A stretch of 64,000 bases of DNA, from the IMG/VR virus record IMGVR_UViG_3300027278_000009. One strand, given 5' to 3'. The position numbers were made by a program, and so were the translations under genes. This stretch comes from a virus. Below are positions 13,121 through 51,708 of the stretch, piece by piece. The notes beneath the pieces were generated by a model. That model was not told where the DNA came from. It worked only from the letters and a program-made list of their open reading frames with translations, and did no database searches. Each line of letters begins with the position of its first letter. Position 1 is the stretch's first letter.

Positions 13121-15094
13121 ATGGCTAAAAGCAAAAAATCGCTAATGATCGAACAGTTTGGAGAAGACCTAACTGCTATGGCAGCTGAAGGCAAATTAGA
13201 TCCAATTATTGGTCGTGATGAAGAGGTAAAAAGAATTTGTCAAATCCTTTCACGTAGAAAGAAAAATAACCCAATTATCTTAGGAGATCCCGGTGTTGGT
13301 AAAACTGCTATTGTTGAGGCAATAGCACAGATGATTGTCGATAAAAAAGTAGCAATGACGTTAACCAATAAAAGAATTATTTCTCTTAATATTTCAAACT
13401 TGGTAGCAGGTACTAAATATCGTGGTGAGTTTGAAGAACGAATGAAAATTATTGTTGATGAACTCAAGGCTGATTCAGACATTATTGTATTCATTGATGA
13501 AATCCATACTATTGTCGGAGCTGGTGGTGTTAGCGGGTCTCTAGATGCTTCTAACATTCTTAAGCCTGCTCTCGCTAGAGGCCAAGTTCAATGTATTGGT
13601 GCAACTACTCTTGATGAATACCGAGAAAATATCGAAGATGATGGTGCATTAACACGTCGTTTTCAAGAGGTATTTATCGATCCGCCATCAATCGATGATT
13701 CTATTTTAATCCTTAATAGAATTAAGGAGAAATACGAGGATTATCATGCAGTCCGTTATACTGATGAGGCAATTGAAGCTTGTGTAACTCTTTCTGATCG
13801 TTACATTACTCAACGAGAGTTACCAGATAAAGCAATTGATTTAATGGATGAAGCAGGCGCTAAAGTTCACTTAACTCAAGTTAATATTCCTAAGCACATT
13901 ACTAAAGCTGAGGAAGCAGCTGAAAAAGTTAAGCAAATGAAATTAGCCGCAGTAGAAGAACAAGACTATGAAAAAGCAGCAAAATACCGAGATGAAGAAC
14001 TTAAAAAACGAGATGAAGTAAAAGCCGTCACTGAAAAGTGGCAAGAAGAAATGCGCATTAATCGTAAACAAGTTACATACGATGATATCGCAGAAACGAT
14101 CTCTCAAGCAACAGGTATTCCAATCACCAGAATGACAGATGACGAAAGTAAGGTTATCATGGAAATGGAACAAAAACTAAAGAGCATGGTTATTGGCCAA
14201 GATTCTGCAGTAGCGGGTCTTACACGAGTAATTAAAAGATCTAGAACAGGAGTTAGTTCTTCTAGAAAACCAATTGGATCATTCATGTTTATTGGACCAA
14301 CTGGTGTAGGTAAAACTGAATTAGTTAAAGCTCTTACTGATTATTACTTCGGATCAGCCGATACAAACTTGATCCGAATTGACATGAGTGAATACCAAGA
14401 GAAATTCAATGTTTCTAAATTAATTGGTTCTCCTCCAGGATATGTTGGTCATGAAGATGGAGGTCAATTAACAGAACAAGTGCGTCGCAAACCATATTCA
14501 GTTGTTTTATTTGATGAGATCGAAAAAGCGCACCCAGATGTATTTAACACATTATTGCAAGTTCTTGATGAAGGTCGCTTAACAGATTCATTAGGTAGAA
14601 CTGTTGATTTTACAAATACAATTATTATTATGACCTCTAACGTAGGCGCTAAAAGAGTTGCAGATTTTGGAACAGGAATTGGATTTGAATCTCAATCTTC
14701 AGTTGCTACACAGAAAACACATGTAGAATCCATCATTCGTAAAGAACTTAAAAATAAGTTTAGCCCAGAATTTTTGAATCGAGTTGATGATATTATTCTA
14801 TTTGACGGATTATCTGAAGAAAACGTTCTTAAGATTGTTGATTTGGAATTGGTTAAAGTAATTGCAAGAATGGCTAATCAAGGATATTCCATTAAAGTAT
14901 CTAAGCCAGCAAAAGTATTCTTAGCAGAAAGAGGTTATGATCCTCAATTTGGAGCTCGCCCACTAAAGCGTGCTGTTCAAAATTATGTTGAAGATATTTT
15001 AGCAGATGCTATCATTGAAAAAAAGATGGTTGAAGGAGATACGGTGTATACAATCAACCATAAAAAAGGTGAAGATAAACTTTTCATCAAATAG
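13121..15094 (+). CDS. clpC: ClpC-like Hsp100 AAA+ ATPase lacking the N-terminal domain
   Basis: Two Walker A motifs (GDPGVGKT, GPTGVGKT), FIDEIH and FDEIEKAH, pore loops AGTKYRGEF and GYVG, UVR-type M-domain (EEQDYEKAAKYRD), IGF ClpP-docking loop (GIGF). Confidence 0.92.
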   Translation: MAKSKKSLMIEQFGEDLTAMAAEGKLDPIIGRDEEVKRICQILSRRKKNNPIILGDPGVGKTAIVEAIAQMIVDKKVAMTLTNKRIISLNISNLVAGTKYRGEFEERMKIIVDELKADSDIIVFIDEIHTIVGAGGVSGSLDASNILKPALARGQVQCIGATTLDEYRENIEDDGALTRRFQEVFIDPPSIDDSILILNRIKEKYEDYHAVRYTDEAIEACVTLSDRYITQRELPDKAIDLMDEAGAKVHLTQVNIPKHITKAEEAAEKVKQMKLAAVEEQDYEKAAKYRDEELKKRDEVKAVTEKWQEEMRINRKQVTYDDIAETISQATGIPITRMTDDESKVIMEMEQKLKSMVIGQDSAVAGLTRVIKRSRTGVSSSRKPIGSFMFIGPTGVGKTELVKALTDYYFGSADTNLIRIDMSEYQEKFNVSKLIGSPPGYVGHEDGGQLTEQVRRKPYSVVLFDEIEKAHPDVFNTLLQVLDEGRLTDSLGRTVDFTNTIIIMTSNVGAKRVADFGTGIGFESQSSVATQKTHVESIIRKELKNKFSPEFLNRVDDIILFDGLSEENVLKIVDLELVKVIARMANQGYSIKVSKPAKVFLAERGYDPQFGARPLKRAVQNYVEDILADAIIEKKMVEGDTVYTINHKKGEDKLFIK

Positions 15095-15103
15095 TAATAT
15101 AAT
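15076..15103 (+). promoter_or_regulatory. Class II promoter
   Basis: TAAAC-N17-TATAAT upstream of 15130. Confidence 0.75.
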
Positions 15104-15129
15104 ATTGTAATCAGTTATTACGATAATAT

Positions 15130-15981
15130 ATGAACTTCAATAAAGCATTTAAGCACATCATTCAGAGCATAGAAAAAAACGGAACTGTTGAACAACCAAG
15201 AGATCTTAAAGTAAAAGAACTCACTGTTCAACAGTTTGCTTTTGATTCTAATTTGCCTTTTGCAGATTTTGAAAATCGAGCATTCAATTTTAAATATTTT
15301 GCAGGTGAACTAGTATGGTACCTAAATAAAAATAGAGATGTTGCATACATTTCTAATTTCTCTAATTTTTGGTCTAATATTACGAATCCACACACAAATG
15401 AAATCAACTCTAATTATGGATCACTATTATTTGGTGATCAGTTAAAATGGGTTGTCAATTCGTTAAAACAAGATAAAAATACACGTCAAGCAATTGCATT
15501 CTTAAATCAACCTAAGTTTCAATTCGAAGGCAACAAAGATTTTGTTTGTACGATGTATTTGAATTTTTGGATTCGCGATAATAAACTGAATATGAAAGTT
15601 CAGATGAGATCCAACGATATCTTTTATGGATTGACATTTGATGCGCCTTTCTTTGCATTTGTTCATCAACATGTTAGATTGTGGTTATTGGATCAATATC
15701 AAGATCTTGAATTAGGTACATATCACCACTGCGTTGATAATATCCATTTTTATGAGCGCCATTTTGAATTAGCTAATAACATATTATCTGAATCAGATAA
15801 TCAAGGTTCTAATTATTCTTTTGAATTAAAAGAACCGCTGTTTAATATTGGCGATACAATGGAGTTGACAAACCATGGCGCTAAATTCATTCAATCGGTT
15901 AATTTCGCTCTTGAGAATGAAGCAAAAAAATCAGAATATTATAATATATTAAGAGATTATCTTAATATTAAAAAAATCTGA
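15130..15981 (+). CDS. Thymidylate-synthase-fold enzyme, T4 gp42-like dCMP hydroxymethylase
   Basis: EINSNYG, DFVCT (catalytic Cys), MRSNDIFYGLTFD with Asp where dUMP-specific ThyA has Asn, HFYERHF. Confidence 0.7.
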   Translation: MNFNKAFKHIIQSIEKNGTVEQPRDLKVKELTVQQFAFDSNLPFADFENRAFNFKYFAGELVWYLNKNRDVAYISNFSNFWSNITNPHTNEINSNYGSLLFGDQLKWVVNSLKQDKNTRQAIAFLNQPKFQFEGNKDFVCTMYLNFWIRDNKLNMKVQMRSNDIFYGLTFDAPFFAFVHQHVRLWLLDQYQDLELGTYHHCVDNIHFYERHFELANNILSESDNQGSNYSFELKEPLFNIGDTMELTNHGAKFIQSVNFALENEAKKSEYYNILRDYLNIKKI

Positions 15982-15987
15982 TTTTGA

Positions 15988-16296
15988 ATGAAAAGGCATA
16001 TACCGACGTTTACAATGAGGCTCGGAACCACTGATATTTTTGAAAAACCAGTCGATGAAGAGGATTTGTTTTATGAAAGACTTTTAGATTTTATTCAATT
16101 AAATTTAAAGTCAACATATAAAGAGAGAGTGCTTTGTTACTTAGAAGACCCAAAAGGAAATCTTAGTGAAGCAACACTTGAAGAAGAAGGATACTATAAA
16201 TCTCTAAATAAATGTATAGAATATTTTAGAGAAGAAGAACAATATGAAAAATGTACATACATTAAAAAATTAATTGAAAAATATGGACTACAATAA
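15988..16296 (+). CDS. Small protein with C-terminal UVR-like motif (paralogue 1)
   Basis: YFREEEQYEKCTYIKKL; overlaps the clpP start. Confidence 0.75.
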   Translation: MKRHIPTFTMRLGTTDIFEKPVDEEDLFYERLLDFIQLNLKSTYKERVLCYLEDPKGNLSEATLEEEGYYKSLNKCIEYFREEEQYEKCTYIKKLIEKYGLQ

Positions 16297-16951
16297 AGAA
16301 TTTAGAAAATATGCAATGAGCGACCATAATATCAGCTCTTCAAATATGGATTATTACCAAAAGCAAATTGAAGCTTCTATGACCCCATATATTTTAGAAG
16401 AAAGAGAGATGCGAGTTACTCAATTAGACATTTTCTCAAGATTAATGGCTGACCGTTTACTTTGGGTAGCAGGCCCAGTAAATGACAATATGTCAACTGT
16501 AGTACAAGCTCAATTAATGTTTTTGGATAGCGTTTCTTCTACAGATATCACAATGCACGTCGATAGCCCTGGAGGTTCAGTTAAGTCAGGTTTGTCGATG
16601 GTTGATGTTATGGAATACATTAAATGCGATATTCGCACGGTAAACACCGGTATGGCCGCATCGATGGGTTCAGTACTTCTTGGCGCTGGAACTAAAGGAA
16701 AGAGATCATCGCTAAGACATTCACGAACAATGTTACACCAATCTTCTGGAGGTTTCTCTGGAAATATTCAAGATGCTGAGATTGATTGGGCAGAGTGGCA
16801 GAAAGTAAATGATGAACTATTTGCATTGCTTGGAGAATATTGCGGAAAGAAAGCAGAACAAGTTAAAAAAGACGCAACTAGAGATTTTTGGTTAACCGCA
16901 GATGAAGCTTTAGCGTACGGAATCATTGATCAAGTTATTAAAAGAAACTAA
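16283..16951 (+). CDS. clpP: ClpP protease, Bacteroidota-type N-terminus
   Basis: SPGGSV, AASMG (Ser), MLHQ (His), RDFW (Asp); MTPYILEER...DIFSRLM leader; the track start 16274 is an alternative. Confidence 0.95.
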   Translation: MDYNKEFRKYAMSDHNISSSNMDYYQKQIEASMTPYILEEREMRVTQLDIFSRLMADRLLWVAGPVNDNMSTVVQAQLMFLDSVSSTDITMHVDSPGGSVKSGLSMVDVMEYIKCDIRTVNTGMAASMGSVLLGAGTKGKRSSLRHSRTMLHQSSGGFSGNIQDAEIDWAEWQKVNDELFALLGEYCGKKAEQVKKDATRDFWLTADEALAYGIIDQVIKRN

Positions 16952-16971
16952 TATTAAGATATTATTATAAT
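16944..16971 (+). promoter_or_regulatory. Class II promoter
   Basis: GAAAC-N17-TATAAT upstream of 16980. Confidence 0.7.
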
Positions 16972-16979
16972 ATAATATT

Positions 16980-17168
16980 ATGAAATTGTATTTTCACATA
17001 GAATTAGAACAGATTGATTTTTTAAATAAAATTATTAAAAATCCTTTTGTTGAATTTGAAAAAATTAAACTCTTTAAAAGTAGAGTTAGTGAAAATTTAA
17101 TTTTAGTGTCATTAGAATATGATACATATATTAGGTTATTAGATCAAAATAAAATTGAAATAGTATGA
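16980..17168 (+). CDS. Hypothetical protein
   Basis: 62-aa ORF with a class II promoter. Confidence 0.6.
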   Translation: MKLYFHIELEQIDFLNKIIKNPFVEFEKIKLFKSRVSENLILVSLEYDTYIRLLDQNKIEIV

Positions 17169-17461
17169 TGGATCGCAGACAAAAGACAACTGAACTATTC
17201 AAAGAGCTAATCAACAAACAGCTCGAGCCTCATGGCGTAACGTATGAAGATGTCAAAGACGATCCACAATGGTACATGAACTATTCAACCGATACAGATA
17301 CTGAAAAGGAATTTATTGAATACTGCATCTCTAGAATTAAAGAAGTTTTAAAATTAAATAACATGCTTGCGGAAAAAGAAGCGCAGTGGTTTATTTTACA
17401 ATGGGGACTAACTACAGTTCCACAAGAAGAGATTGTTCGAGGTAAGATTAAAAGCGAATAA
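17165..17461 (+). CDS. Hypothetical protein
   Basis: 98-aa ORF, overlapping coupled start. Confidence 0.7.
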   Translation: MMDRRQKTTELFKELINKQLEPHGVTYEDVKDDPQWYMNYSTDTDTEKEFIEYCISRIKEVLKLNNMLAEKEAQWFILQWGLTTVPQEEIVRGKIKSE

Positions 17462-17540
17462 GTTCAGACTAATATCATATTATATTAATATAAATACCAA
17501 TTAGAATAATATCATCTGATACAGTTTAAATAAATACTGT

Positions 17541-18221
17541 ATGGATATATTAAGAGAAAATTGGTGTATTGCACCTCCTCACGATTACGAGTTAAAAAAA
17601 TATCAGCTTTTAGGCGCTATTCAACATGTAGTTAATAGTGTTGAAGCTGGTAAATTGCTTTATGCTTTGAAAACAGTTGAGAGCACTTTGTACAACCTTT
17701 ATAAATTTCAGTCTAATAAAGGAACATTAGATAATAAAATGAAAATTATCAAAGGCATTAATTTAGATACTATGTCGTTAGATTACGAATATCCTTCTGA
17801 TTCTAAAGAGATGAAAGATATCTATGAATTATGTGATTTTGCGATAGAAGAATTTGAAACAGTTTTTAAATTGGTAAGATCTAAATGGAGGTTATTATCT
17901 GCTAAAATATATCTTACTGAAATCCCAAGCACGCGACCTACTAAAACTAAGATTCAGTTGTTCGTAGCTAGAAAGGATTCTGATAATATATTGATATATG
18001 AATATCATAATATTGGAATTGCCGATTGGAAAGATATTAATCCAATAAAAATTGGAGAAATAAAAAATGAAATCGGAGAATTATCAGAATATATTCAAAA
18101 TCTCGAAGACAGCGAGAATTATAGATTTTGGAGATGTAATCATACAATTGATCATGATGTTGATGCGTGCATTATACCATTAATCAAATATGCCTTGTTT
18201 TTCAAGATTCTAACCGCTTAA
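17541..18221 (+). CDS. Hypothetical protein
   Basis: 226-aa ORF after TAAATA motif. Confidence 0.75.
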   Translation: MDILRENWCIAPPHDYELKKYQLLGAIQHVVNSVEAGKLLYALKTVESTLYNLYKFQSNKGTLDNKMKIIKGINLDTMSLDYEYPSDSKEMKDIYELCDFAIEEFETVFKLVRSKWRLLSAKIYLTEIPSTRPTKTKIQLFVARKDSDNILIYEYHNIGIADWKDINPIKIGEIKNEIGELSEYIQNLEDSENYRFWRCNHTIDHDVDACIIPLIKYALFFKILTA

Positions 18222-18255
18222 TAGAATATATAGTTAAAATAAATAGATTAACTAT

Positions 18256-19500
18256 ATGGCAATTATTGCAAAGGACGATATCATCCTACAGATTGACGCT
18301 GAATTTAATTTTGTTCAAGGTAATGAGCAGGTCTATGAATTTAAGTTATACAAAGACTTTATTGGACAGGCACTAAATTTAAATGAACCAACATCAATTC
18401 ACGCGGCTATCTATAGAAATGATACTAAATATCTTCAATATTCTAACCCATCAACAATGGGTGTTTCTAGCAAATTAGAATTACATAAAACTGAGAATAG
18501 TGGTAGATGTTCTTTTACAATGATTCCACAGCAAACATTAGTGATTCCTCCTGGGGAGATCTATATGCAAGTTAGTGTAATTTATGAAAACTATTATCCG
18601 CAACCAAAGGTTTATGTATTCCCATTAATTAAATTAGGTGAAGCAGTTCAAGGCGCCGGTGGTGTAACTGATCCAAATCCAGGAACTGGAACTGGCGGAA
18701 ATACTGGCGGAAATACTGGTGGTGGAACAACTGCAATCTTTAATGGCAGTACATTTATGGTTGAAGCCGTTAATGGATCTAATCCTACTGATTCTGGTAA
18801 AGTAACTATTGATAATTATATTCCAAGTTTAGTTACAACAATTAAATTTAGAAATCTTGATGAGAAAGAATCTAGAATTACTCTTCTTGAAAATTTCTTA
18901 AAGAATAGAATTGGAGTAGATGGAGTTTCAGGAACAATTACACTTTCAGATTTAGGAGATACTAATATGTACGCAATTTATAAGATCTTAGATTGGTCTA
19001 GAATTGATATTAATCCCGGGGATGGCGATGACCAAAACACAGATGGTATTATGGTTAATGTTGTATTAGAAGACCTAGCGTCTGGACCTGGCGTAACAAG
19101 ATCTACATTCGTAGTTGGACAAAAAGTAACTTATTACTTAGATGCAATTGGAGGAGGATCAGTATCGGTTAAAGAAGGTATTAATACATATCTTGATAAA
19201 AATATTAATCCAATTGCAACATCAGGCGATAACGCCCCTACTGGAGTTGCAATAACTTATTCTCCATATTATGATTCTTACGTAATGGTAGAGGTTAATG
19301 GTATTTCAGCTGAAGTAGGTGATGGTGTTAAAACTAAAGCATGCTATTTCTCTGGCAACAACGGATTAACGGCGGTCGCAATTGAAGAAATTCGAAGCGG
19401 AGACCAATTAATTTGGAATGGCCAAATTTCCGGATACGACCTAGAAATTGGAGATCAAATCAACTTAATATACGAGGTTGATGTTGACGATTTAAGATAA
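18256..19500 (+). CDS. Putative virion structural protein; C-terminal domain paralogous to that of 24242..25006
   Basis: Beta-rich; GTGTGGNTGGNTGGG linker; VNG...YFS.N.G.TA..I.E...GD.L.WN...GY....GD...L.YE shared with the paralogue. Confidence 0.7.
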   Translation: MAIIAKDDIILQIDAEFNFVQGNEQVYEFKLYKDFIGQALNLNEPTSIHAAIYRNDTKYLQYSNPSTMGVSSKLELHKTENSGRCSFTMIPQQTLVIPPGEIYMQVSVIYENYYPQPKVYVFPLIKLGEAVQGAGGVTDPNPGTGTGGNTGGNTGGGTTAIFNGSTFMVEAVNGSNPTDSGKVTIDNYIPSLVTTIKFRNLDEKESRITLLENFLKNRIGVDGVSGTITLSDLGDTNMYAIYKILDWSRIDINPGDGDDQNTDGIMVNVVLEDLASGPGVTRSTFVVGQKVTYYLDAIGGGSVSVKEGINTYLDKNINPIATSGDNAPTGVAITYSPYYDSYVMVEVNGISAEVGDGVKTKACYFSGNNGLTAVAIEEIRSGDQLIWNGQISGYDLEIGDQINLIYEVDVDDLR

Positions 19501-19662
19501 TAATATATTAACGTAGTATTTCTAAAAAAATGAAAATCTCATTTTTTTGTTTAATTTTATTACTATAATATGTTATTTTTCAATAATAGTGTCATTTCAA
19601 CCTGAATATATAATCACGATAGCAATAAAGCTATCCGCCAAAATAAATTAATAAATAAAATT

Positions 19663-21447: not shown

Positions 21448-21484
21448 GAAATAGCTTAATCTGATTAAGACTATTAAATAGTTT

Positions 21485-21512
21485 AGGGGATCCCTTCGGG
21501 GATCCCCTTTTT
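21485..21512 (+). terminator. Intrinsic terminator with UUCG loop
   Basis: AGGGGATCCC-TTCG-GGGATCCCCT plus T-run. Confidence 0.92.
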
Positions 21513-21526
21513 TTATTATTGATATA

Positions 21527-21554
21527 TAAACTAGTTCAAAAAAATGAATATAAT
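21527..21554 (+). promoter_or_regulatory. Class II promoter overlapping a GATATATA motif
   Basis: TAAAC-N17-TATAAT upstream of 21560. Confidence 0.75.
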
Positions 21555-21559
21555 ATTGT

Positions 21560-24110: not shown

Positions 24111-24241
24111 GTAATATTTATCTAAAATAATATAATAACACCTACATTAGTGGACTATGCCCTATATAAAATATGATATATACTTAGAAAATTAAGGGCC
24201 ACAAGGCCTTTAGCTTATAACTTAAAAAAAAAATTAAATCT

Positions 24242-25006: not shown

Positions 25007-25047
25007 TCTAACTAAAAATTAAAAAAAAAATAAAAACGTAAAAAATT

Positions 25048-33708: not shown

Positions 33709-33730
33709 TATAATCAAAGAAATTAAAGCA

Positions 33731-34964: not shown

Positions 34965-34966
34965 AA

Positions 34967-36477: not shown

Positions 36478-36482
36478 AGAAA

Positions 36483-36641: not shown

Positions 36642-36649
36642 TATAGACA

Positions 36650-38311: not shown

Positions 38312-38349
38312 TAAGATAAACTAATTTGAAAAAGAATATAATATAAAAA

Positions 38350-39972: not shown

Positions 39973-40007
39973 TAAATTGAAATTGAAATAAATTATAATA
40001 TAAAAAA

Positions 40008-41702: not shown

Positions 41703-41722
41703 TATTAACAAATATTTTAGAT

Positions 41723-41751
41723 AAAAAAGAGGACTACGGTCCTCTTTTTTT
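41723..41751. terminator. Bidirectional intrinsic terminator (cUACGg loop)
   Basis: AAAAAAGAGGAC-TACG-GTCCTCTTTTTT. Confidence 0.92.
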
Positions 41752-41796
41752 ATGAGATATATACAACATAATAACAGAGTAATATAATAACTTATT

Positions 41797-42882: not shown

Positions 42883-42906
42883 TAAACAGAATATAAATAT
42901 AAAAAT

Positions 42907-43860: not shown

Positions 43861-43873
43861 AATAAATTTATAA

Positions 43874-45772
43874 ATGGCTTATAATTTACATATCTTAACA
43901 AGATGTACGCGTCCTAAAAATTTAACGACAGTACAAAATTCTGTTTTCACAGATACACACGGATTAAACATAACTTGGCACGTTATATTTGATACAGCAC
44001 CTTTAAAGGATATTGATGCTGAATTATTATCAAGTATTTCAGGTCCACAAACTAAAATTCATTTCATCAATGCAGGGGATGGCGGTCTTTTATATCCACA
44101 ATGCACTGAATTAATTAAAGGAATTGAAGATCAAGATGCATGGATTTATTTCCTTGATGATGATAATATCTTACATGAAAACTTTTACAATAGAGTTTCT
44201 GAGTTTGTAAAAGAAAATGCAAAGATCCATGTATTTTCCCAATATATTGGTGGAAAAGATTTTACAGGATTAGAAGTTAGGCATGCGACTTTTGAAAATA
44301 CTGGTTTCCAAAAAACAGATATTGCACAGATTATTTTCAAAAGATCATTGATGGAAGATTATACGTTTGGAAGTAATTATGCAGCAGATGGATATTTTAT
44401 TTCAGCAGTTCTCAAAGATCACTTTGATTGGTTTAGCTGGCATAATGAAATCTTATCTTATTATAACCATTTGGAAAAGCCATCAAAGGCTAGAATTCCA
44501 AAGGTAATTTACATTGGTCCAGGCCAGCCTGAATTAATTAGCCGTCAATTTGTAAATTACGAGGCAAACGATCTTGACGTAAAGTATTTTGAGAATGATA
44601 ATGGCATTGTTCAACAAATTATAGAATTTAATCCAGATTCTATTGTTACAGTAGGAGGCACTTGGCAAGATTATCCAAATCTTGCATCTCTTCCAATTTC
44701 TTTACGTAGAAAATGGAATCATGTTGAAGATGTAAATATACCAATCGATGAAATCGGTTCAAGAGCGTATATGGGAGCAATGACAACCATGCTCAGTCCT
44801 CAATATTTAAATGATGAAGAAACTATTTCGTTTGTTACACCAATCTATAACACTGGTACTAAATTATATCAAACATACCAATCTCTCGCTCGTCAGACTT
44901 ATGAAAACTGGGAATGGGTTCTAGTGAATGATTCATCCGATGGTGGTAAAACATTGAAGATCGCTGAGAAGATTGCAGCAATGGATCCTAGAGTTAAGGT
45001 ATATGACTTTAGAGAAAAATCAGGTGGAATTATCGGTGAAGTTAAATATCGTGGTAACGCTCTTGCAAGAGGATACATTTTGGCAGAATTCGATCATGAT
45101 GATATTTTAACACCAAACGCAGCAATGGATATTCATTTAGCGGCGAAAAAGCACCCAGAGTGCGGATTCTTCTACACTGATTGTACTGAATGGACAGAAG
45201 AAGGAGAATCATTAAGATATGATCCAGGCTTTGCATTCTCTTATGGTAATTATAGATTAGAAGAATATGAAGGTAAAGATGTTTGGGTATGTAATCAACA
45301 TGACATTAATCCTAAAACAATTCGACATATTGTTGGTGTACCTAACCACGTAAGAGCTTGGAGAAAATCTACATACTTTGAAATTGGTGGTCATAACCGA
45401 GGATTAGCAATTGCTGATGATTATGAATTAGTTGTACGCACATTCTTACATACTAAGATGTGTCGTATTCCAAATCTATGTTACATTCAATATATCTACA
45501 ATAATGCAGGTGGACAAAATACACACAATTTGGCCCGAGCAGATATTCAACGTAGAGTTCGTACTATTATGTACTACTATAATGAACAAATTAAAGATAG
45601 ATTTGAAGAACTTGGATTATACGACTGGGCATACTATGAAAATCCAAATGCACCATTACATGTTCAATCCAAATTTGGTGAAGAAGAACAAGTTGCAAAT
45701 ATTACATACGTTGAAGGAGAAACCCTCAATCCAGACGCTGTAAACAAACCAGCTCTACAAGAAACATGGTAA
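43874..45772 (+). CDS. Tandem (two-domain) GT2 glycosyltransferase
   Basis: WIYFLDDDN in domain 1; ISFVTPIYN, WEWVLVNDSSD, AEFDHDD, ADDYEL in domain 2. Confidence 0.85.
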   Translation: MAYNLHILTRCTRPKNLTTVQNSVFTDTHGLNITWHVIFDTAPLKDIDAELLSSISGPQTKIHFINAGDGGLLYPQCTELIKGIEDQDAWIYFLDDDNILHENFYNRVSEFVKENAKIHVFSQYIGGKDFTGLEVRHATFENTGFQKTDIAQIIFKRSLMEDYTFGSNYAADGYFISAVLKDHFDWFSWHNEILSYYNHLEKPSKARIPKVIYIGPGQPELISRQFVNYEANDLDVKYFENDNGIVQQIIEFNPDSIVTVGGTWQDYPNLASLPISLRRKWNHVEDVNIPIDEIGSRAYMGAMTTMLSPQYLNDEETISFVTPIYNTGTKLYQTYQSLARQTYENWEWVLVNDSSDGGKTLKIAEKIAAMDPRVKVYDFREKSGGIIGEVKYRGNALARGYILAEFDHDDILTPNAAMDIHLAAKKHPECGFFYTDCTEWTEEGESLRYDPGFAFSYGNYRLEEYEGKDVWVCNQHDINPKTIRHIVGVPNHVRAWRKSTYFEIGGHNRGLAIADDYELVVRTFLHTKMCRIPNLCYIQYIYNNAGGQNTHNLARADIQRRVRTIMYYYNEQIKDRFEELGLYDWAYYENPNAPLHVQSKFGEEEQVANITYVEGETLNPDAVNKPALQETW

Positions 45773-46440
45773 CATTTATCATACCTACTTTATGGAAGTC
45801 TGAATGCATCTACAAAACAATAGATGCCATTCAGGCTTCTACTATTTCAGGTATTGAATTGTTTATATTTGATAATGCAAAATCAGGATATGAATCACCA
45901 GACTCTAGAATTAAAGTAGTTAATGATAAAGATTATTGGGTTAATCCAGCATGGAACCGCGGGGTCGAATTAGCAAGCAACGAGTGGATTTGCTTATTAA
46001 ATGATGATATACACGTCAATGTAGATCTTTTATGTAAAACATTTAAAAGAGACGTAATAGATAAGCCTGAAGTTGTATCATCCTTTGGTAATTTAGGTTA
46101 TAAAACTTCTCAACCGTTTTATGAAGAGATAAATGGAGATAATGAGGAATTAAATGTAATTCCACAGCCTTTTAAAGGAAATGGATACGGCCAACTTATA
46201 ATTATTAACAAAAAAGATTGGTCGCCTATTCCTGAATATTTTAGAGTTTATTTTGGAGACGATTTTATACACTATGTAACTGAAAATCTTCTCCAAAAAC
46301 AAAGTTTATGTTTCGATAACTTAAAAGCCATTGGACAATACAGCGCAACTTCACGAGAGATCGAATATATTTTACAACAAGAATTTACGTTTTGGAATAA
46401 AGCCGTAAATGATATTAGAGACAAATTAACAAACAATTAA
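45766..46440 (+). CDS. GT2-family glycosyltransferase
   Basis: TFIIPT, FIFDN, VNPAWNRG, CLLNDD, YFGDD. Confidence 0.8.
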   Translation: MVTFIIPTLWKSECIYKTIDAIQASTISGIELFIFDNAKSGYESPDSRIKVVNDKDYWVNPAWNRGVELASNEWICLLNDDIHVNVDLLCKTFKRDVIDKPEVVSSFGNLGYKTSQPFYEEINGDNEELNVIPQPFKGNGYGQLIIINKKDWSPIPEYFRVYFGDDFIHYVTENLLQKQSLCFDNLKAIGQYSATSREIEYILQQEFTFWNKAVNDIRDKLTNN

Positions 46441-46444
46441 AATT

Positions 46445-47041
46445 ATGAAAACAGATTACGTTTTTCCGTACAAACACAATGATCCACAACAGTGGTATTG
46501 GTTTAAAGAAGGATTTTCTAGATCAGAATTGCATAAGATTTATGCAGACTTGCAGAATATTCCTTTTGAAAGAGCAACAACGTTAGGTAGCACCGATGGT
46601 GGTGAAGTAAGACGTTCAAATATTAAGTGGCTCCCGCGTGATGAACATTGGGGATGGGTATATGAAAAATTAATCAATATGGCTGTTGAGGCTAATAACT
46701 CTCTTTGGCATTTTGATTTGCATACTGCGCCTGAACAGATTCAATACACCGAATATGATGCAGCCGAGTTAGGTCATTACGATTGGCACCAAGATATTGG
46801 ACACGGCGGAGCTTCTCTTAGAAAGGTTTCTATTACGGTTCAATTATCGGAGTCAAACGAATATGATGGAGGAGATCTTGAAATCTGGCAAGGTGGAGAT
46901 ATCGATACAGCACAATACACACCGCGTGGAGCAGGTAATGTGATCATTTTCCCAAGCTATATGCCTCACCGTGTAAAACCAGTTACAAAAGGACTTAGAC
47001 GTTCCTTTGTATTATGGGTAGGCGGAGAGCATTACAAATAA
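46445..47041 (+). CDS. 2OG-Fe(II) oxygenase (prolyl-4-hydroxylase/PKHD-like)
   Basis: YDWHQD, RKVSITVQL, YDGGDLE, IFPS..PHRVKPVTKG.R.S. Confidence 0.85.
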   Translation: MKTDYVFPYKHNDPQQWYWFKEGFSRSELHKIYADLQNIPFERATTLGSTDGGEVRRSNIKWLPRDEHWGWVYEKLINMAVEANNSLWHFDLHTAPEQIQYTEYDAAELGHYDWHQDIGHGGASLRKVSITVQLSESNEYDGGDLEIWQGGDIDTAQYTPRGAGNVIIFPSYMPHRVKPVTKGLRRSFVLWVGGEHYK

Positions 47042-47051
47042 TAAATAGTAT

Positions 47052-47294
47052 ATGGACAAATACCCTGATATGAAATCAATGTTCGTTACAATCTATGTAC
47101 ACCACATGGACATAGACGCGATGTATGATTATATCAATGGTAGAATTAAGACTCCACCTCACTATTGGATTGATTATAAAGAGCTACCAGATTTAATATC
47201 TGGTGGCTTTTTAGAAATCCATATTACCTATGAAATCTATTCTCTAATCAGAGAAGTAAAAGACCACACATCATTCTTAGATTCTAGATTATAA
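47052..47294 (+). CDS. Hypothetical protein
   Basis: 80-aa ORF after TAAATA. Confidence 0.65.
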   Translation: MDKYPDMKSMFVTIYVHHMDIDAMYDYINGRIKTPPHYWIDYKELPDLISGGFLEIHITYEIYSLIREVKDHTSFLDSRL

Positions 47295-47319
47295 ACTTTA
47301 TTCATTGGCCATATATAAT
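47292..47319 (+). promoter_or_regulatory. Class II promoter
   Basis: TAAAC-N17-TATAAT upstream of 47338. Confidence 0.75.
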
Positions 47320-47337
47320 ACTTGAAACATATTTAAG

Positions 47338-47577
47338 ATGGCCAAGAAAAAGAAAGAGGATCGCAAAATTACTGTTAAGTCTCCAAAGAAAGGAGAACAG
47401 TATTATTTTACATTCGCAGGAGGCATCATTAAAGGAACATTAGGGGATCGTATTGAAAGGTTAGAAATTCATTACGGCGAAAAGTGGTATCGTATGCATA
47501 TTATTGAAGGCGACAAGGAGATGAGATACCCAATTCCTCTTAGAAATATTGCACTAACTTATGAAGAATTAAAATAA
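47338..47577 (+). CDS. Hypothetical protein
   Basis: 79-aa ORF with a class II promoter. Confidence 0.7.
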   Translation: MAKKKKEDRKITVKSPKKGEQYYFTFAGGIIKGTLGDRIERLEIHYGEKWYRMHIIEGDKEMRYPIPLRNIALTYEELK

Positions 47578-47578
47578 T

Positions 47579-48292
47579 ATGTACAATCAAACAGACTTTA
47601 AAGATTTTTTATTCATTGATATCGAGACAGCTGGCCAATATCAAGATCTTTCTGGGGTTTCAGATAGATTAAGCAAACTTTGGCAAATTAAGGCTGATTT
47701 TCAACGTAAAAATGAAGATGGCATGCAGGACCTTTCCGATGAAGATATTTACGAAAAAGGAGCGGCGTGGTTTCCAGAATTTGGAAAGATTATTTGTATT
47801 TCTATTGGCCAAATTAAATTTGATGAACAAGGTGTTCCTCAAACGGCTAATATAAGATCTTTTTATGGAGATGATGAAAGGGTATTACTTGAAGAATTTA
47901 ACGGAGTTATGCAGGCTGTTTTTAATAAGAATCCTAAGATTCAACTAGTTGGTCATAACATTAAGCGATTTGATATGCCGTGGATTGTTAAGAGATCTTT
48001 AATTAATGGATTAAAAGTACCTTATCAATTTCATTTCCAGAAGCAAAAGCCTTGGGAAAACTGCTTATTAGATACTTATGAAATTTGGAAATTTGGTGGA
48101 GTAAATAGTACTTCATTAGATTTAATTTGCGCAGCATTAGATATTCCTTCACCTAAACAAGATATTTCAAATGATCAAGTTTCAGATCGTTATTGGGCTG
48201 GTGAACTTGAAAATATTAAAACGTATTGCGAAGGAGATGTTAAGGCTACTATGAATGTAATGCTTAGAATCGCAAATCTAGATATTTTATGA
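47579..48292 (+). CDS. DnaQ-like (PolB-exo2-type) 3'-5' exonuclease
   Basis: ExoI IDIET, ExoII GHNIKRFD, ExoIII YCEGDV; KPWE..LLDT. Confidence 0.85.
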   Translation: MYNQTDFKDFLFIDIETAGQYQDLSGVSDRLSKLWQIKADFQRKNEDGMQDLSDEDIYEKGAAWFPEFGKIICISIGQIKFDEQGVPQTANIRSFYGDDERVLLEEFNGVMQAVFNKNPKIQLVGHNIKRFDMPWIVKRSLINGLKVPYQFHFQKQKPWENCLLDTYEIWKFGGVNSTSLDLICAALDIPSPKQDISNDQVSDRYWAGELENIKTYCEGDVKATMNVMLRIANLDIL

Positions 48293-49122
48293 AAGTATGG
48301 GCATACGTCCTAGTATGGAATGAGGAGTTAATGCTTCCTTATTACCTAAAGCACTATTCTCAATTTTGTGATAAAATTATCATATACGATAATATGTCCA
48401 CAGATTCAACCTGTGACATTGCACGGGAATATGGAAATCAGGTTGAAATAATCCCATTTGAAACTAACGGCGAGTTCAATGATTATACGCATATTGAATT
48501 AAAGAGAAAGAGTATTCAACATGCTAAAGGACAGGCCGACTTTATCATTTTAACGGACTGTGATGAGTTTGTGTATCATACAGACTTGAAATCATTTCTA
48601 TCTCAAAATCAAAATTGTAGCGTATTCTATCCAGCAGGTTTTCAAATGGCATCCGATGATTTTCCATACGATTTACCTGGACAATTATATGATTATGTAC
48701 AATGGGGAGAACCTAATCCATGGTATGTAAAACCAATGATTGTTAATTTAAATCTAATAGATGATTTAGAATGGGTTGAAGGTGCACATGAATTAGAATT
48801 AAGTTACGATTTAGGAGAATTCTACCACCCAGTTCCTAAAGATATTCGACCAATGGGGGAATATCTAGGTCACCAATGGGGTCGTTGGCAAAAACTATTT
48901 GAGATCTTAGATGATTTTAACCGCGAACCATTAAAGATGCTTCATTATAAATTTCTTGGAGAGAAGTATGTAACTGACCGATATAATCAATATATGGTTA
49001 AAATGAGCGCGAAGAACCATGAAAACTCGGTTGGTATGCACTATCAAGAGGCAATTGATAATGGGACAGTGCTAGATCAAATTAATCAAATCAAGGCTAA
49101 AGCAATAAGAGTGTCATTGTGA
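48289..49122 (+). CDS. GT2-like glycosyltransferase
   Basis: VWNEELMLPYYLKHY, YDNMSTDST, DCDEF, LHYKF. Confidence 0.8.
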   Translation: MKVWAYVLVWNEELMLPYYLKHYSQFCDKIIIYDNMSTDSTCDIAREYGNQVEIIPFETNGEFNDYTHIELKRKSIQHAKGQADFIILTDCDEFVYHTDLKSFLSQNQNCSVFYPAGFQMASDDFPYDLPGQLYDYVQWGEPNPWYVKPMIVNLNLIDDLEWVEGAHELELSYDLGEFYHPVPKDIRPMGEYLGHQWGRWQKLFEILDDFNREPLKMLHYKFLGEKYVTDRYNQYMVKMSAKNHENSVGMHYQEAIDNGTVLDQINQIKAKAIRVSL

Positions 49123-49177
49123 CATATTTAACTACAGTAAATTAATTAAAAAGTGACTATTTGACATATTTTAACAA

Positions 49178-49193
49178 TGGCATGATTATTGCA
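49178..49193 (+). promoter_or_regulatory. Sigma54-type -24/-12 promoter candidate upstream of hsp20
   Basis: TGGCATGATTATTGCA versus consensus TGGCACG-N4-TTGCW (one mismatch). Confidence 0.5.
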
Positions 49194-49252
49194 TTATAAT
49201 ATATGTTATGACAATAACTCAAAAAAATGTTTAACTAAATAGAAATTAAATT

Positions 49253-49612
49253 ATGAGTATTTTAAATCAACTTATGTTTAGCGATTTTATTTTCAACAAC
49301 AACATTCCATCTTATGGAACTTCAAATTCTTGGAATATTGACAAGAATGAAAACGGTTACGTATTAACTGTTAATGTACCGGGATTCTCTAAAGATGATA
49401 TTGGAATCGATATTGAAGAAGATGTACTACATGTTCAAGGATCTAAGGGAACAGAAGATTCAAAGAAGGTTGTAAACAAAAGATTTAATCTAGAGACTCT
49501 TGAAATCGATTATGACAAGGTAACTGCAAAATGCGAAAATGGAGAGCTCGCGATTAATTTACCGATGTTAGATGAGAACATTTCTAGAAAAAAATCTGTA
49601 AAAATTAGCTAA
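49253..49612 (+). CDS. hsp20: Small heat-shock protein (Hsp20)
   Basis: VNVPGFSKDDI.I.IE...L.V.G; A.CENGEL.INLP; I-x-I tail (VKIS). Confidence 0.88.
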   Translation: MSILNQLMFSDFIFNNNIPSYGTSNSWNIDKNENGYVLTVNVPGFSKDDIGIDIEEDVLHVQGSKGTEDSKKVVNKRFNLETLEIDYDKVTAKCENGELAINLPMLDENISRKKSVKIS

Positions 49613-49616
49613 AACA

Positions 49617-49648
49617 TTTTTTTATATCGCGGATTTTTGTTATATTTA
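49617..49648 (+). promoter_or_regulatory. Class I promoter (ATATCG variant)
   Basis: TTTTTTTATATCG-N11-TATATTTA upstream of 49674. Confidence 0.75.
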
Positions 49649-49673
49649 CCTTATAAAACAAAATACAGATACT

Positions 49674-49928
49674 ATGTTTGACTTTAACGAAGATTTTGAA
49701 GAGGATTTCACACCAGAGTTTGACAATTCTCAAGAACACATGGAGATCTTGAAGGATCGATTGGCTCGAGCAAATTATACTGCTATCAAAAATTATGGTA
49801 TCAATACAGAATATCACAATAATTCTAGAATGCTCAAGCAAATTATCAGCGAGACTATGCAGTATTTTGAAGAACTTGAGGAATATGAAAAATGCACAGA
49901 TTTAAAGAGGGTACTTGATACCATCTAA
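49674..49928 (+). CDS. Small protein with C-terminal UVR-like motif (paralogue 2)
   Basis: YFEELEEYEKCTDLKRVL. Confidence 0.75.
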   Translation: MFDFNEDFEEDFTPEFDNSQEHMEILKDRLARANYTAIKNYGINTEYHNNSRMLKQIISETMQYFEELEEYEKCTDLKRVLDTI

Positions 49929-49932
49929 AACC

Positions 49933-49957
49933 AACCGGGTTAGCCCGGTTTTTTTTA
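49933..49957 (+). terminator. Intrinsic terminator
   Basis: AACCGGG-TTAG-CCCGGTT plus T-run. Confidence 0.88.
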
Positions 49958-49961
49958 TGTT

Positions 49962-49989
49962 TAAACATTGACAAAATGTGATATATAAT
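49962..49989 (+). promoter_or_regulatory. Class II promoter
   Basis: TAAAC-N17-TATAAT upstream of the dnaJ-bS21 operon. Confidence 0.75.
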
Positions 49990-50010
49990 ATAATATTAGA
50001 ATAACATATT

Positions 50011-50142
50011 ATGAACGATCAATTATTAGAACGCATTGCAATTGCATTAGAAAAGATTGCAGCTAAGATGGAGAATTCGGAGAAGCGTGAAGTTGCTGAA
50101 AAACGCAGAGCGCTTAAGGAATCGCGTAATAAAAAAGCATAA
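50011..50142 (+). CDS. 43-aa helical protein
   Basis: Hand-translated MNDQLLERIAIALEKIAAKMENSEKREVAEKRRALKESRNKKA; stop overlaps the dnaJ ATG. Confidence 0.65.
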   Translation: MNDQLLERIAIALEKIAAKMENSEKREVAEKRRALKESRNKKA

Positions 50143-50927
50143 TGAATTATTACGAAGTCTTAGGGGTAAATTCTAATGCTTCTCACGATGAGATAAAAAA
50201 AGCTTATCGGGATTTGGTGAAGATTCATCACCCTGATAAAGGTGGGTCTGAAGATAGATTCAAACAAATCTCTGAGGCGTATGATATTTTAGGCGATACC
50301 AATAAGAGACAAGAATACGATTTTAAGCAAAGTGGAGATTCCAGCTTTAGAGATTTCTTTGTTAAGTTTGGTGGAGATTGGTCTGGAATGTTTAATCAAT
50401 CGTTTGGTCAAGAGGCCCGAGGATTAGATGTTAGGATTTCAGTTCCATTAACGATGTCAGAAGTTTATAATGGTTGTTCTAAATATATTGATTTAGGCGG
50501 TGATAGCTTTAATATTAAAATTCCAGCTGGAGTTTTAAATGGCGCTAAACTTAAAGTAAACGGTAAAGGAGATTATCATCCAATCAATCGATCCGCCCCT
50601 CGAGGAAATGCAATCATAACCATACAATATATTATCGATCCCGATATTATTATACAGGGACACGATATCTGGACTGAATGTACCTTATCTTTTGTTGATT
50701 TATTACTTGGAACAAAGATAAATATAAAGAATAGTTTGTATGATATTACAGTCAATATACCTAAAAATTCATACGAAGGAAAGGTACTTAGAATTTCTGG
50801 CAAAGGAATGCCAATATATAATACAAATGAATATGGCAGTTTATTGATTAAACTCAGAACTCTACCACCAAATCTAAACGAAGAGCAACTAAAATTAGTA
50901 GAAAAAATTAAAGAATTATATGCTTAG
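50142..50927 (+). CDS. dnaJ: DnaJ/CbpA-type chaperone (class II, no Zn finger)
   Basis: YYEVLGV...HHPDK...ISEAYDILGD; G/F region; C-terminal LRISGKGMP. Confidence 0.9.
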   Translation: MNYYEVLGVNSNASHDEIKKAYRDLVKIHHPDKGGSEDRFKQISEAYDILGDTNKRQEYDFKQSGDSSFRDFFVKFGGDWSGMFNQSFGQEARGLDVRISVPLTMSEVYNGCSKYIDLGGDSFNIKIPAGVLNGAKLKVNGKGDYHPINRSAPRGNAIITIQYIIDPDIIIQGHDIWTECTLSFVDLLLGTKINIKNSLYDITVNIPKNSYEGKVLRISGKGMPIYNTNEYGSLLIKLRTLPPNLNEEQLKLVEKIKELYA

Positions 50928-51153
50928 CGAATTTGAAGACAACGGTATTGAACACATCATCCAAGGATCGAAAGATACTATGATGAATATGATCTATAAA
51001 GCGATTGTTAATAATGAACAAGATGCTTTAAGCAGCAACACACCAGCTAATGAAAAGTTAGATGCTCTTACTAACGTTCTACAATATTTTGAAGGCACTG
51101 AAGAATATGAAAAGTGCTTTAATATTAAAAAAATCATTGATAAAATATGTTGA
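50920..51153 (+). CDS. Small protein with C-terminal UVR-like motif (paralogue 3)
   Basis: YFEGTEEYEKCFNIKKII. Confidence 0.75.
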   Translation: MLSEFEDNGIEHIIQGSKDTMMNMIYKAIVNNEQDALSSNTPANEKLDALTNVLQYFEGTEEYEKCFNIKKIIDKIC

Positions 51154-51344
51154 TTATTAATGTTGATAATGGAAATATCGAAAAGGCCTTAAAGGTCTTA
51201 AAATATAAAGTAAATAAAACTAAACAAACTAAAACACTTCGCGACCAAAAGGAGTATACAAAGCCATCCGTAACCAAAAGGATTAAGAATCAAAAAGCTA
51301 AGTATATTCAGCAAAAATTCGGTGATAATCAGTCTGCCGAATAA
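51147..51344 (+). CDS. rpsU: Ribosomal protein bS21, Bacteroidota-like
   Basis: MLIINV...NIEKALK..K.K...T......YTKPSV.KR....KAKYIQ; 65 aa, basic. Confidence 0.85.
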   Translation: MLIINVDNGNIEKALKVLKYKVNKTKQTKTLRDQKEYTKPSVTKRIKNQKAKYIQQKFGDNQSAE

Positions 51345-51450
51345 AGTTAACAGAGTATAATATCATTATATTTTTTTACCAAATTAACTAACAGGTTTAA
51401 CCCGGTTTAAATATATACACTGTTAAAACAAAACATAGAAGGTCGCAATC

Positions 51451-51708
51451 ATGGATGAAATATTAGGTCAAGACAGAGATTCACTAATGCGAGCTTCGTA
51501 CTATACAATCACTCGAAACTTTACTAAAACAGTTAATCGATTTGTTGTATTTAGAGAAGGAAGCGATATTATTGAAATCCCTCACGGTATTGGTCAACGC
51601 TCAAAATTCATTGATATCTTAATTGGATATTTTGAAGGTCTTGAGGAGTATGAGAAGTGCGACAAGTTAATGAAATTGAAAGATCTTGTCATAATGGCAG
51701 GTGATTAA
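51451..51708 (+). CDS. Small protein with C-terminal UVR-like motif (paralogue 4)
   Basis: YFEGLEEYEKCDKLMKL. Confidence 0.75.
   Translation: MDEILGQDRDSLMRASYYTITRNFTKTVNRFVVFREGSDIIEIPHGIGQRSKFIDILIGYFEGLEEYEKCDKLMKLKDLVIMAGD

What the first reader, a model, noticed from the sequence alone, without database searches (positions are those of the whole stretch)
13121..51708. Phage ClpCP without an N-domain plus four UVR-motif small proteins: candidate adaptor-programmed protease system
Seen: four otherwise unrelated 77-102 aa ORFs (15988, 49674, 50920, 51451) end in the motif YF(E/R)xxE(E/Q)YEKCxxL/I. This aligns with the M-domain of the phage ClpC (AVEEQDYEKAAKYRD). One copy sits between clpC and clpP and overlaps the clpP start; the others are interleaved with hsp20, dnaJ and bS21. 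The ClpC begins directly at the AAA1 entry motif (IEQFGEDLT), so it lacks the usual N-terminal adaptor/substrate-docking domain, but it keeps the IGF loop for ClpP. Known: UVR helical hairpins pair head-to-head, ClpC M-domains control the resting state, and adaptors such as MecA and McsA contact them. Inference: the UVR-like tails dock on the M-domain while the variable N-termini select substrates, giving a modular phage-encoded proteolysis system. The copies follow different promoters (class I for 49674, class II operons for others), which could stage the programme in time.
Basis: partly seen in the sequence, partly recalled or inferred. Interest (0 to 1): 0.82.

Follow-up and report, generated by a model that had tools for sequence, protein, structure and literature searches.

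The report
Phage EEYEKC hairpin proteins beside ClpCP
Four small genes in a large marine phage share an EEYEKC-tipped helical hairpin and sit among the phage's own protease and chaperone genes; they belong to a large uncharacterised phage protein family, and the idea that they steer the phage ClpC-ClpP protease is plausible but only weakly supported.

Summary
Four ORFs (102, 84, 77 and 85 aa) end in [YF][FY]xxxE(E/Q)YEKC, against 0 copies expected by chance. The phage ClpC (657 aa) really lacks an N-domain but keeps the M-domain UVR motif and the GIGF loop, and ClpP, Hsp20, DnaJ, bS21 and PhoH are confirmed.

The tails do not match the UVR family by any test: Pfam on 37 tails, a six-frame UVR scan of relatives, a profile search of PDB sequences, and hhalign against the ClpC M-domain (0.64% probability, 12 columns). 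Its Tyr matches ClpC Y283, which aligns with B. subtilis F436, the M-domain contact residue.

One complex prediction (ClpC 1-345 with the 102-aa protein) gave weak support: 0.42 against 0.00 for the best control.

The order clpC-thy-Y102-clpP is conserved in seven relatives. However, the domain defines at least 829 clusters of small phage proteins.

First-stage readers noted the same pattern on other genomes. My best reading, at about 0.3, is that these are M-domain-directed regulators.

The parts
13121..15094 (+). ClpC-type double-ring AAA+ unfoldase without an N-domain (657 aa). Walker A at residues 55-62 and 392-399, M-domain DYEKAA at 282-287, ClpP-docking GIGF at 519-522.
   Evidence: Pfam AAA_2 1.6e-70, AAA_lid_9, ClpB_D2-small and UVR at 267-295. 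phrog_4871 aligns from profile position 169. Homologues are 648-658 aa. Motif positions.
13919..14005 (+). M-domain UVR motif of ClpC (residues 267-295). Y283 is equivalent to B. subtilis ClpC F436.
   Evidence: Pfam PF02151 E 1.7e-4, 21.7 bits against a cut-off of 21.5. Alignment to 3J3R, where residue 436 starts FEKAA.
15130..15981 (+). Thymidylate-synthase-like gene, a conserved member of the clpC-thy-Y102-clpP block.
   Evidence: Pfam Thymidylat_synt 8.3e-23. Synteny in L001-L006 and L142.
15988..16296 (+). Y102: 102-aa EEYEKC-family protein. Motif YFREEEQYEKC at residues 79-89 (nt 16222-16254). Overlaps the clpP start.
   Evidence: AF2 pLDDT 88.9: strand 7-10, helix 25-41, strands 48-53 and 59-63, helices 66-82 and 86-99. 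Weak complex support with ClpC 1-345.
16274..16951 (+). ClpP peptidase with Ser, His and Asp motifs present.
   Evidence: Pfam CLP_protease 3e-58. Motifs GMAASMG, LHQ and RDFW.
49253..49612 (+). Hsp20 small heat-shock protein.
   Evidence: Pfam HSP20 3.5e-13.
49674..49928 (+). Y84: 84-aa EEYEKC-family protein with an acidic N-terminus. Motif at nt 49863-49895.
   Evidence: Orthologues lie next to dnaJ in L001 and L003-L006.
49933..49950 (+). Terminator-like hairpin directly after Y84.
50142..50927 (+). DnaJ-type co-chaperone (J domain plus C-terminal domain).
   Evidence: Pfam DnaJ 3.9e-23 and DnaJ_C 4.5e-27.
50920..51153 (+). Y77: 77-aa EEYEKC-family protein. Overlaps the dnaJ stop and the bS21 start. 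Motif at nt 51085-51117.
   Evidence: Orthologues.
51147..51344 (+). Ribosomal protein bS21 homologue.
   Evidence: Pfam Ribosomal_S21 8e-13.
51451..51708 (+). Y85: 85-aa EEYEKC-family protein, the most conserved paralogue, always just upstream of phoH. Motif at nt 51628-51660.
   Evidence: AF2 pLDDT 84.2: helices 3-21 and 24-29, strands 31-36 and 39-43, helices 49-63 and 67-82.
51723..52427 (+). PhoH-like ATPase, the end of the conserved module.
   Evidence: Pfam PhoH 8.2e-65.

Best explanation
The four ORFs are real genes. They are paralogous members of a large, phage-specific and so far undescribed family of small proteins. The family signature is a C-terminal helix-turn-helix hairpin carrying [IL]xx[YF][FY]xxxEEYEKCxx[IL]KK at its acidic tip.

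In this phage clade all four sit inside a phage proteostasis module: N-domain-less ClpC, ClpP, Hsp20 and DnaJ.

The most likely single mechanism is inferred, not shown. The hairpin tip copies the tip of the ClpC M-domain (QDYEKAA; the Tyr is equivalent to F436) and engages that M-domain. This would break the M-domain to M-domain contacts that keep an N-domain-less ClpC proteolytically inert, and so switch on or redirect the phage ClpC-ClpP.

The 102-aa protein, encoded between clpC and clpP, is the best candidate. The same hairpin in phages without their own ClpC would then act on the host's ClpC or ClpB.

Shown: the genes, the family, the hairpin, the motif correspondence and the synteny. Inferred: binding, the binding site and the effect on activity.
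For: - Motif and fold: the motif is invariant in the four copies and absent by chance. It lies at the turn and the start of the last helix in two confident AF2 models.
- Correspondence to ClpC: window ClpC Y283 in DYEKAA aligns with F436 of B. subtilis ClpC. In PMC12583610, F436A abolishes M-domain contacts and activates ClpC. In the same paper, deltaN-ClpC binds ClpP and has raised ATPase activity, but has no proteolytic activity unless the M-domain contacts are also broken.
- Complex prediction of ClpC 1-345 with Y102: score 0.42 against a best control of 0.00; the three runs agree in 100% of contacts; partner pLDDT at least 79. The mark was reached by 58 of 80 solved complexes and 2 of 110 mismatched pairs. 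At 0.60 or under it was reached by only 7 of the 80 and by both mismatches, so the tool's verdict is weak support.
- Synteny: clpC-thy-Y102-clpP with an abutting or overlapping Y102/clpP junction in the window, L001-L003, L005, L006 and L142, where ClpC is 67-77% identical where measured (L004 holds the thy-Y102-clpP part). A YEKC-like protein (EDYEMC) lies 0.7 kb downstream of a 52%-identical ClpC in G010.
- No separate Clp_N domain is encoded in five relatives' records, so another route for regulation is needed.
- Precedents: the phage adaptor-like protein SPO1 Gp53 (PMC6873191) and UVR-domain proteins enriched among plastid CLPC1 interactors (PMC8889267).
Against: - No significant sequence relation to UVR or to the M-domain. 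Pfam UVR hit 0 of 37 tails at E<=10 and 3 of 148 diverse members, best E 0.008. A per-genome UVR scan finds only ClpC. hhalign against the M-domain gives 0.64% probability, E 0.09.
- The complex score is in the band the tool calls 'more often wrong than right unless the guess was likely beforehand', and no interface was returned, so M-domain docking is untested.
- The family is much broader than ClpC-encoding phages. Of 33 motif-bearing viral records, 8 have ClpC. The three most complete records (100%, 97%, 85%) have none.
- 65 of 125 sampled copies are a ~145-aa subfamily whose recurrent neighbours have no proteostasis annotation; most are unannotated.
- A 484-kb phage with ClpC has no copy. 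G007 has clpC, an MGS-like gene and clpP with no YEKC gene between them.
- Synteny among close relatives may simply be inherited.
Confidence: 0.3

Rival explanations
1. The EEYEKC proteins are general small phage effectors (host take-over or anti-defence type). Their conserved hairpin tip binds some other highly conserved partner, and their position next to clpC, clpP, dnaJ and hsp20 only reflects a shared early or auxiliary gene region.
For: - The family has at least 829 clusters at 50% identity. Nearly all members are 45-150 aa and none has a fused known domain.
- It is present in near-complete 59-70 kb phages without ClpC and in a 642-kb phage about 255-285 kb from its clpC.
- The ~145-aa subfamily has recurrent neighbours with no proteostasis annotation.
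- There is no detectable UVR homology.
Against: - It does not explain why all four paralogues of this clade stay inside the proteostasis module across relatives.
- It does not explain the motif's match to the M-domain tip.
- It does not explain the weak but control-clean complex score.
- No alternative partner is indicated by any result.
Confidence: 0.35
2. The proteins are substrates rather than regulators. The hairpin would be a recognition tag that delivers them to ClpC-ClpP for timed degradation.
For: In plastids, UVR-domain proteins are trapped by CLPC1 and may be substrates or adaptors (PMC8889267). The weak predicted binding fits either role.
Against: The hairpin is a well-packed part of a compact fold, not a disordered degron. 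The occurrence in ClpC-less phages counts against this reading as much as against the adaptor reading.
Confidence: 0.1
3. The motif is conserved for folding or self-association of a small helical domain, for example hairpin-to-hairpin dimers or a Cys-dependent link. The paralogues would have unrelated functions, and the likeness to the M-domain would be convergence of helical-hairpin sequence.
For: - Structure searches return only generic helical or TPR-like matches at Z about 5 and unnamed phage proteins.
- Y, F, C and I/L of the motif are the kind of residues that pack two helices.
- hhalign against the M-domain is not significant.
Against: - Pure packing would tolerate Ala or Ser at the Cys position. 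Yet Cys is found in 131 of 132 of the best hits.
- The exposed acidic residues E, E and E are as conserved as the core residues.
Confidence: 0.15

Closest known systems
UVR motif (Pfam PF02151) as found in the ClpC M-domain, UvrB/UvrC, McsA and plant CLPF/EXE proteins
   Same: Both are helix-turn-helix hairpins. The second helix opens with an aromatic residue, Glu, any residue, then a small residue, followed by a hydrophobic and a basic residue. Compare EEYEKCxxIKK with QDYEKAAKYRD.
   Different: There is no HMM or profile-level match. Cys replaces the Ala-Ala pair and is nearly invariant. In the two modelled proteins the hairpin is packed into a small alpha/beta domain rather than standing as a free coiled coil.
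ClpC adaptors and activators MecA and McsA/McsB (Bacillus)
   Same: The proposed role is the same: a small partner protein that releases ClpC from its inactive state and selects substrates. McsA carries a UVR motif (from my own knowledge).
   Different: There is no sequence similarity to MecA or McsA domains in Pfam. According to PMC12583610, partner proteins activate ClpC by binding the N-domain, which this ClpC lacks.
[quoted passage not shown]
   Same: It is a phage protein that binds ClpC, stimulates its ATPase and re-programmes ClpCP during infection.
   Different: Gp53 is a 25-kDa protein that acts on the host's full-length ClpC. Here the phage brings its own N-domain-less ClpC and ClpP. 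I did not compare the sequences.
Engineered deltaN-ClpC of S. aureus (PMC12583610)
   Same: The domain content is the same as the phage ClpC: AAA1, M-domain and AAA2 with no N-domain.
   Different: The laboratory construct is proteolytically inert unless M-domain contacts are mutated. The phage version is a natural protein conserved in hundreds of contigs, which implies that it works, by a route still unknown.

Membership tests
UVR domain (PF02151) | Match to the Pfam UVR model at or near its gathering score | tested here: not met
   None of the four ORFs hits at E<=1. 0 of 37 tails hit at E<=10. 3 of 148 diverse members hit, best E 0.008. A six-frame scan of G001, G002 and G003 at E<=10 finds only the ClpC M-domain.
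UVR domain (PF02151) | Profile-level similarity to a bona fide UVR segment (the ClpC M-domain) | tested here: not met
   hhalign of A2 against A5: probability 0.64%, E 0.09, 12 columns. The tail profile against PDB sequences at E<=10 returns no UvrB, ClpC or McsA.
UVR domain (PF02151) | Helical hairpin with the aromatic-Glu-x-small motif opening the second helix | tested here: met
   AF2 models: Y102 helices 66-82 and 86-99 with Y86-E-K-C89; Y85 helices 49-63 and 67-82.
ClpC adaptor or regulator (functional class: MecA, McsA/B, CLPF, Gp53) | Physical binding to ClpC | tested here: inconclusive
   Prediction only. Score 0.42 against a best control of 0.00; runs agree in 100% of contacts; partner pLDDT at least 79; verdict 'weak support'; no interface given.
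ClpC adaptor or regulator (functional class: MecA, McsA/B, CLPF, Gp53) | Changes ClpC ATPase activity, assembly state or ClpCP substrate degradation | not testable with these tools
   Needs biochemistry.
ClpC adaptor or regulator (functional class: MecA, McsA/B, CLPF, Gp53) | Occurs together with the ClpC it serves | tested here: not met
   Only 8 of 33 motif-bearing viral records encode ClpC. The three records that are 85-100% complete do not. A host ClpC target is not excluded.
ClpC / class I Hsp100 unfoldase | Two AAA+ modules, a short UVR-type M-domain and a ClpP-docking (I/L/V)GF loop | tested here: met
   Pfam AAA, AAA_lid_9, UVR, AAA_2 and ClpB_D2-small. GIGF at 519-522 and Walker motifs. 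E 3.4e-41 to B. subtilis ClpC over residues 180-350.
ClpC / class I Hsp100 unfoldase | N-terminal double Clp_N repeat domain | tested here: not met
   No Clp_N among the 25 Pfam families listed. The phrog_4871 alignment starts at position 169. The gene starts right after a terminator and promoter. 120 homologues are 648-658 aa. No separate Clp_N is found in five relatives.
ClpP peptidase (PF00574) | Pfam match and Ser-His-Asp motifs | tested here: met
   3e-58; motifs.

The most novel reading that the evidence does not exclude
The EEYEKC hairpin is a phage-invented mimic of the Hsp100 M-domain tip. A family of at least 829 clusters of small phage proteins would use it as a decoy for M-domain to M-domain contacts, unlocking or redirecting ClpC-type unfoldases: the phage's own N-domain-less ClpC in this clade, and the host's ClpC or ClpB elsewhere. 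The four paralogues would give the phage protease different specificities or timing.
Probability: 0.2. Interest if true: 0.85.

Novelty: new variant of a known kind. Interest (0 to 1): 0.55.

Why it matters
ClpC is normally held inactive by its N-domain and by M-domain contacts, and it is switched on by adaptors that bind the N-domain. A large clade of abundant marine phages carries a complete ClpC-ClpP with no N-domain, so how that machine is controlled and aimed is an open question.

A phage-specific small-protein family whose invariant tip resembles the M-domain contact site gives a concrete, cheap hypothesis to test. If it holds, it would add a new class of M-domain-directed regulators of AAA+ proteases.

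Independently of that, the EEYEKC family is large (at least 829 clusters), has no Pfam or PHROG model, and deserves a family definition.

Tried and rejected
- UVR homology of the tails is rejected at sequence level. Even the rarer Ala variants (FExxEEYEKAA, a separate 100-106 aa phage family) do not hit Pfam UVR.
- The ESM Atlas feature search gave one lead: a 63-aa viral cluster in which 32% of members carry UVR, score 0.82. That is below the tool's own trust level.
- Known-fold searches: Foldseek against PDB found nothing at E<=0.001. VIA-align wide gave a best Z of 5.5, only generic helical or TPR-like rows. AFDB clusters, Atlas and BFVD returned only unnamed phage or metagenome proteins.
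- Fused domains in the ten longest of the listed family members (146-235 aa): none.
- PHROGs: no family for any of the four.
- The GenBank phage collection has no DNA or tblastn match for the small proteins.
- A separately encoded Clp_N domain was not found in five relatives.
- The annotated neighbours of the ~145-aa subfamily have no proteostasis function; most have no annotation.
- The whole genome is not held.
Full report
**Observation.** The four ORFs are present exactly as listed. Each ends in a stretch whose core is YF(E/R)xxE(E/Q)YEKC. A six-frame regular-expression scan finds only these four copies in 64 kb. The degenerate DNA pattern for EYEKC occurs 3 times against 0.00 expected in shuffles. 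The 102-aa ORF (Y102) lies between a thymidylate-synthase-like gene and clpP and overlaps the clpP start. The 84-, 77- and 85-aa ORFs (Y84, Y77, Y85) are interleaved with genes confirmed by Pfam as Hsp20, DnaJ, bS21 and PhoH.

**The protease.** The ClpC gene encodes 657 aa with both AAA+ modules, a Pfam UVR hit in the M-domain (residues 267-295, 21.7 bits) and a GIGF loop at 519-522. It has no N-domain:
- It aligns to phrog_4871 only from profile position 169.
- The gene begins right after a terminator-like hairpin and a TATAAT box.
- The 120 best homologues in the large protein collection are all 648-658 aa, on contigs of up to 242 kb.
- No separate Clp_N domain is encoded in five related records.

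ClpP is intact. The N-domain-less ClpC-ClpP pair is therefore a conserved feature of a large, mostly marine, uncultured phage clade. CheckV estimates put relatives of 145-170 kb at 46-61% complete.

**The small proteins are a big family.** A profile of the four proteins finds 977 proteins that fall into four orthologous groups. An exhaustive HMMER search with the 41-position tail profile finds 829 clusters at 50% identity. Nearly all members are 45-150 aa with the domain at the C-terminus, and Cys is present in 131 of 132 of the best hits that carry the E[YFW]E motif. No Pfam or PHROG family covers these proteins, and the ten longest of the listed members have no fused known domain.

**Is the tail a UVR motif?** By sequence statistics it is not.
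- Pfam UVR hits none of the four ORFs, none of 37 tails at E<=10, and 3 of 148 diverse members at best E 0.008.
- A six-frame UVR scan of three related records, with per-genome E-values up to 10, finds only the ClpC M-domain.
- The tail profile finds no UvrB, ClpC or McsA chain in the PDB sequences.
- hhalign of the tail profile against an alignment of the phage ClpC M-domain gives 0.64% probability (E 0.09) over 12 columns. Those columns are exactly EEYEKCxxlK against QDYEKAAxfR.

The resemblance is real as a motif but is not evidence of homology.

**Structure.** AF2 models are confident for Y102 (pLDDT 88.9, pTM 0.80) and Y85 (pLDDT 84.2). Both show the order helix, beta-hairpin, helix, helix. 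The motif spans the end of the penultimate helix, a three-residue acidic turn and the start of the last helix. The tail is therefore a helical hairpin, but it is part of a compact small domain rather than a free appendage. Between the two families only the 26-column hairpin is alignable. Fold searches return only generic helical or TPR-like matches (Z about 5) and unnamed phage proteins.

**Link to ClpC.** Four results favour a link.
- The Tyr of the ClpC motif, Y283, aligns with F436 of B. subtilis ClpC. In PMC12583610, F436A removes the M-domain contacts and activates ClpC. A ClpC lacking the N-domain binds ClpP and hydrolyses more ATP, but stays proteolytically inert unless those M-domain contacts are also broken. 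A natural N-domain-less ClpC therefore plausibly needs an M-domain-directed activator.
- The single complex prediction allowed (ClpC 1-345 with Y102) scored 0.42 against 0.00 for the best of three controls. All three runs agreed in 100% of contacts and partner pLDDT was at least 79. The mark was reached by 58 of 80 solved complexes and 2 of 110 mismatched pairs. At 0.60 or under it was reached by only 7 of the 80 and by both mismatches. The tool's verdict is weak support, and no interface was reported.
- The order clpC-thy-Y102-clpP, and about 5 kb further on Y84-dnaJ-Y77-Y85-phoH, is conserved in relatives whose ClpC is 67-77% identical where measured. In the window the two halves are separated by about 33 kb of other genes.
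- A YEKC-like protein (EDYEMC) lies 0.7 kb from a 52%-identical ClpC in G010.

**Against a dedicated link.**
- Of 33 viral records that carry the motif, 8 encode ClpC. Most of the rest are fragments, but the three most complete records (100%, 97% and 85%) lack it. The two tested with the tail profile, G003 and G023, each have one copy.
- 65 of 125 sampled copies belong to a ~145-aa subfamily whose recurrent neighbours have no proteostasis annotation; most are unannotated.
- A 642-kb phage has two copies about 255-285 kb from its clpC, and a 484-kb phage with ClpC has none.
- In G007 an MGS-like gene, not a YEKC gene, lies between clpC and clpP.

The hypothesis survives only if the hairpin can also act on host ClpC-type proteins. 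Earlier first-reader notes place clpC in Bacteroidota genomes, and a neighbour gene in L012 looks to me like a Bacteroidota type IX secretion C-terminal sorting domain, judged from the sequence alone. I could not test host targeting.

**Verdict.** The EEYEKC proteins are a large new phage family with no known function. The adaptor or activator model is the best single mechanism, but I put it at about 0.3. A different, unknown target is collectively at least as likely. First-stage readers of other genomes noted the same pattern. Those notes are repeats of the idea, not independent evidence.

Noticed in passing
L002 5486-9101 (relative G001, IMGVR_UViG_3300037295_000360): In this relative, clpC is encoded as two genes. 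The first ends ...GPTGVGK|CFTGETLI... followed by a stop. The second starts with about 115 extra residues ending ...GILSHN|TETVKALAEYYFG. These look like intein block A and block G around the D2 Walker A P-loop. That would make it a naturally split intein with a very short N-fragment (~32 aa) and a long C-fragment. A 96-aa ORF lies between the two genes, and there is no Rfam intron match.
   Followed up: partly
window 16952-49252: In five relatives (L001, L003-L006) the clpC-thy-Y102-clpP block and the Y84-dnaJ-Y77-Y85-phoH block are only about 5 kb apart. In the window they are about 33 kb apart.
   Followed up: partly
L020 3297-3731 (-), L024 1032-1454, L031 537-971 and about 60 other loci: A ~145-aa subfamily of the EEYEKC family has a conserved N-terminal half (MDxxKIFxLF ... 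PxFxIGMFxKLIxN ... YxRAWxYI). It makes up about half of the copies sampled in viral contigs. Its recurrent neighbours are not proteostasis genes: DUF932, a T5orf172 nuclease and several unknowns.
   Followed up: partly
L146 1155-1469, L153 7291-7608, L149 1669-1968: A separate family of 100-106 aa phage proteins carries the Ala form of the motif (MIFEDKEEYEKAAMILKKI). It is much rarer than the Cys form and is also not recognised by Pfam UVR.
   Followed up: partly
L139 4943-5314 (relative G007): A 123-aa ORF that looks methylglyoxal-synthase-like, judged by eye from the sequence, sits between clpC and clpP. This is where the window's clade has the thy-like gene and Y102.
   Followed up: no
window 15988-16296: The Y102 family has a second invariant Cys (C50, in LC) besides the motif Cys (C89), and a third mostly conserved Cys (C76). 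No metal-site pattern is obvious.
   Followed up: no
window 49933-49950: A strong terminator-like hairpin (AACCGGG-TTAG-CCCGGTT followed by a T run) lies directly after the 84-aa gene. It separates an hsp20-Y84 unit from the dnaJ-Y77-bS21 unit.
   Followed up: no
PDB entries 9if4 and 8ycx: Solved ClpC1 chains of 657-658 aa align with the same numbering as the phage ClpC (about 174-344), so structures of N-domain-less ClpC1 forms exist. I did not look up whether they are natural proteins or constructs.
   Followed up: no
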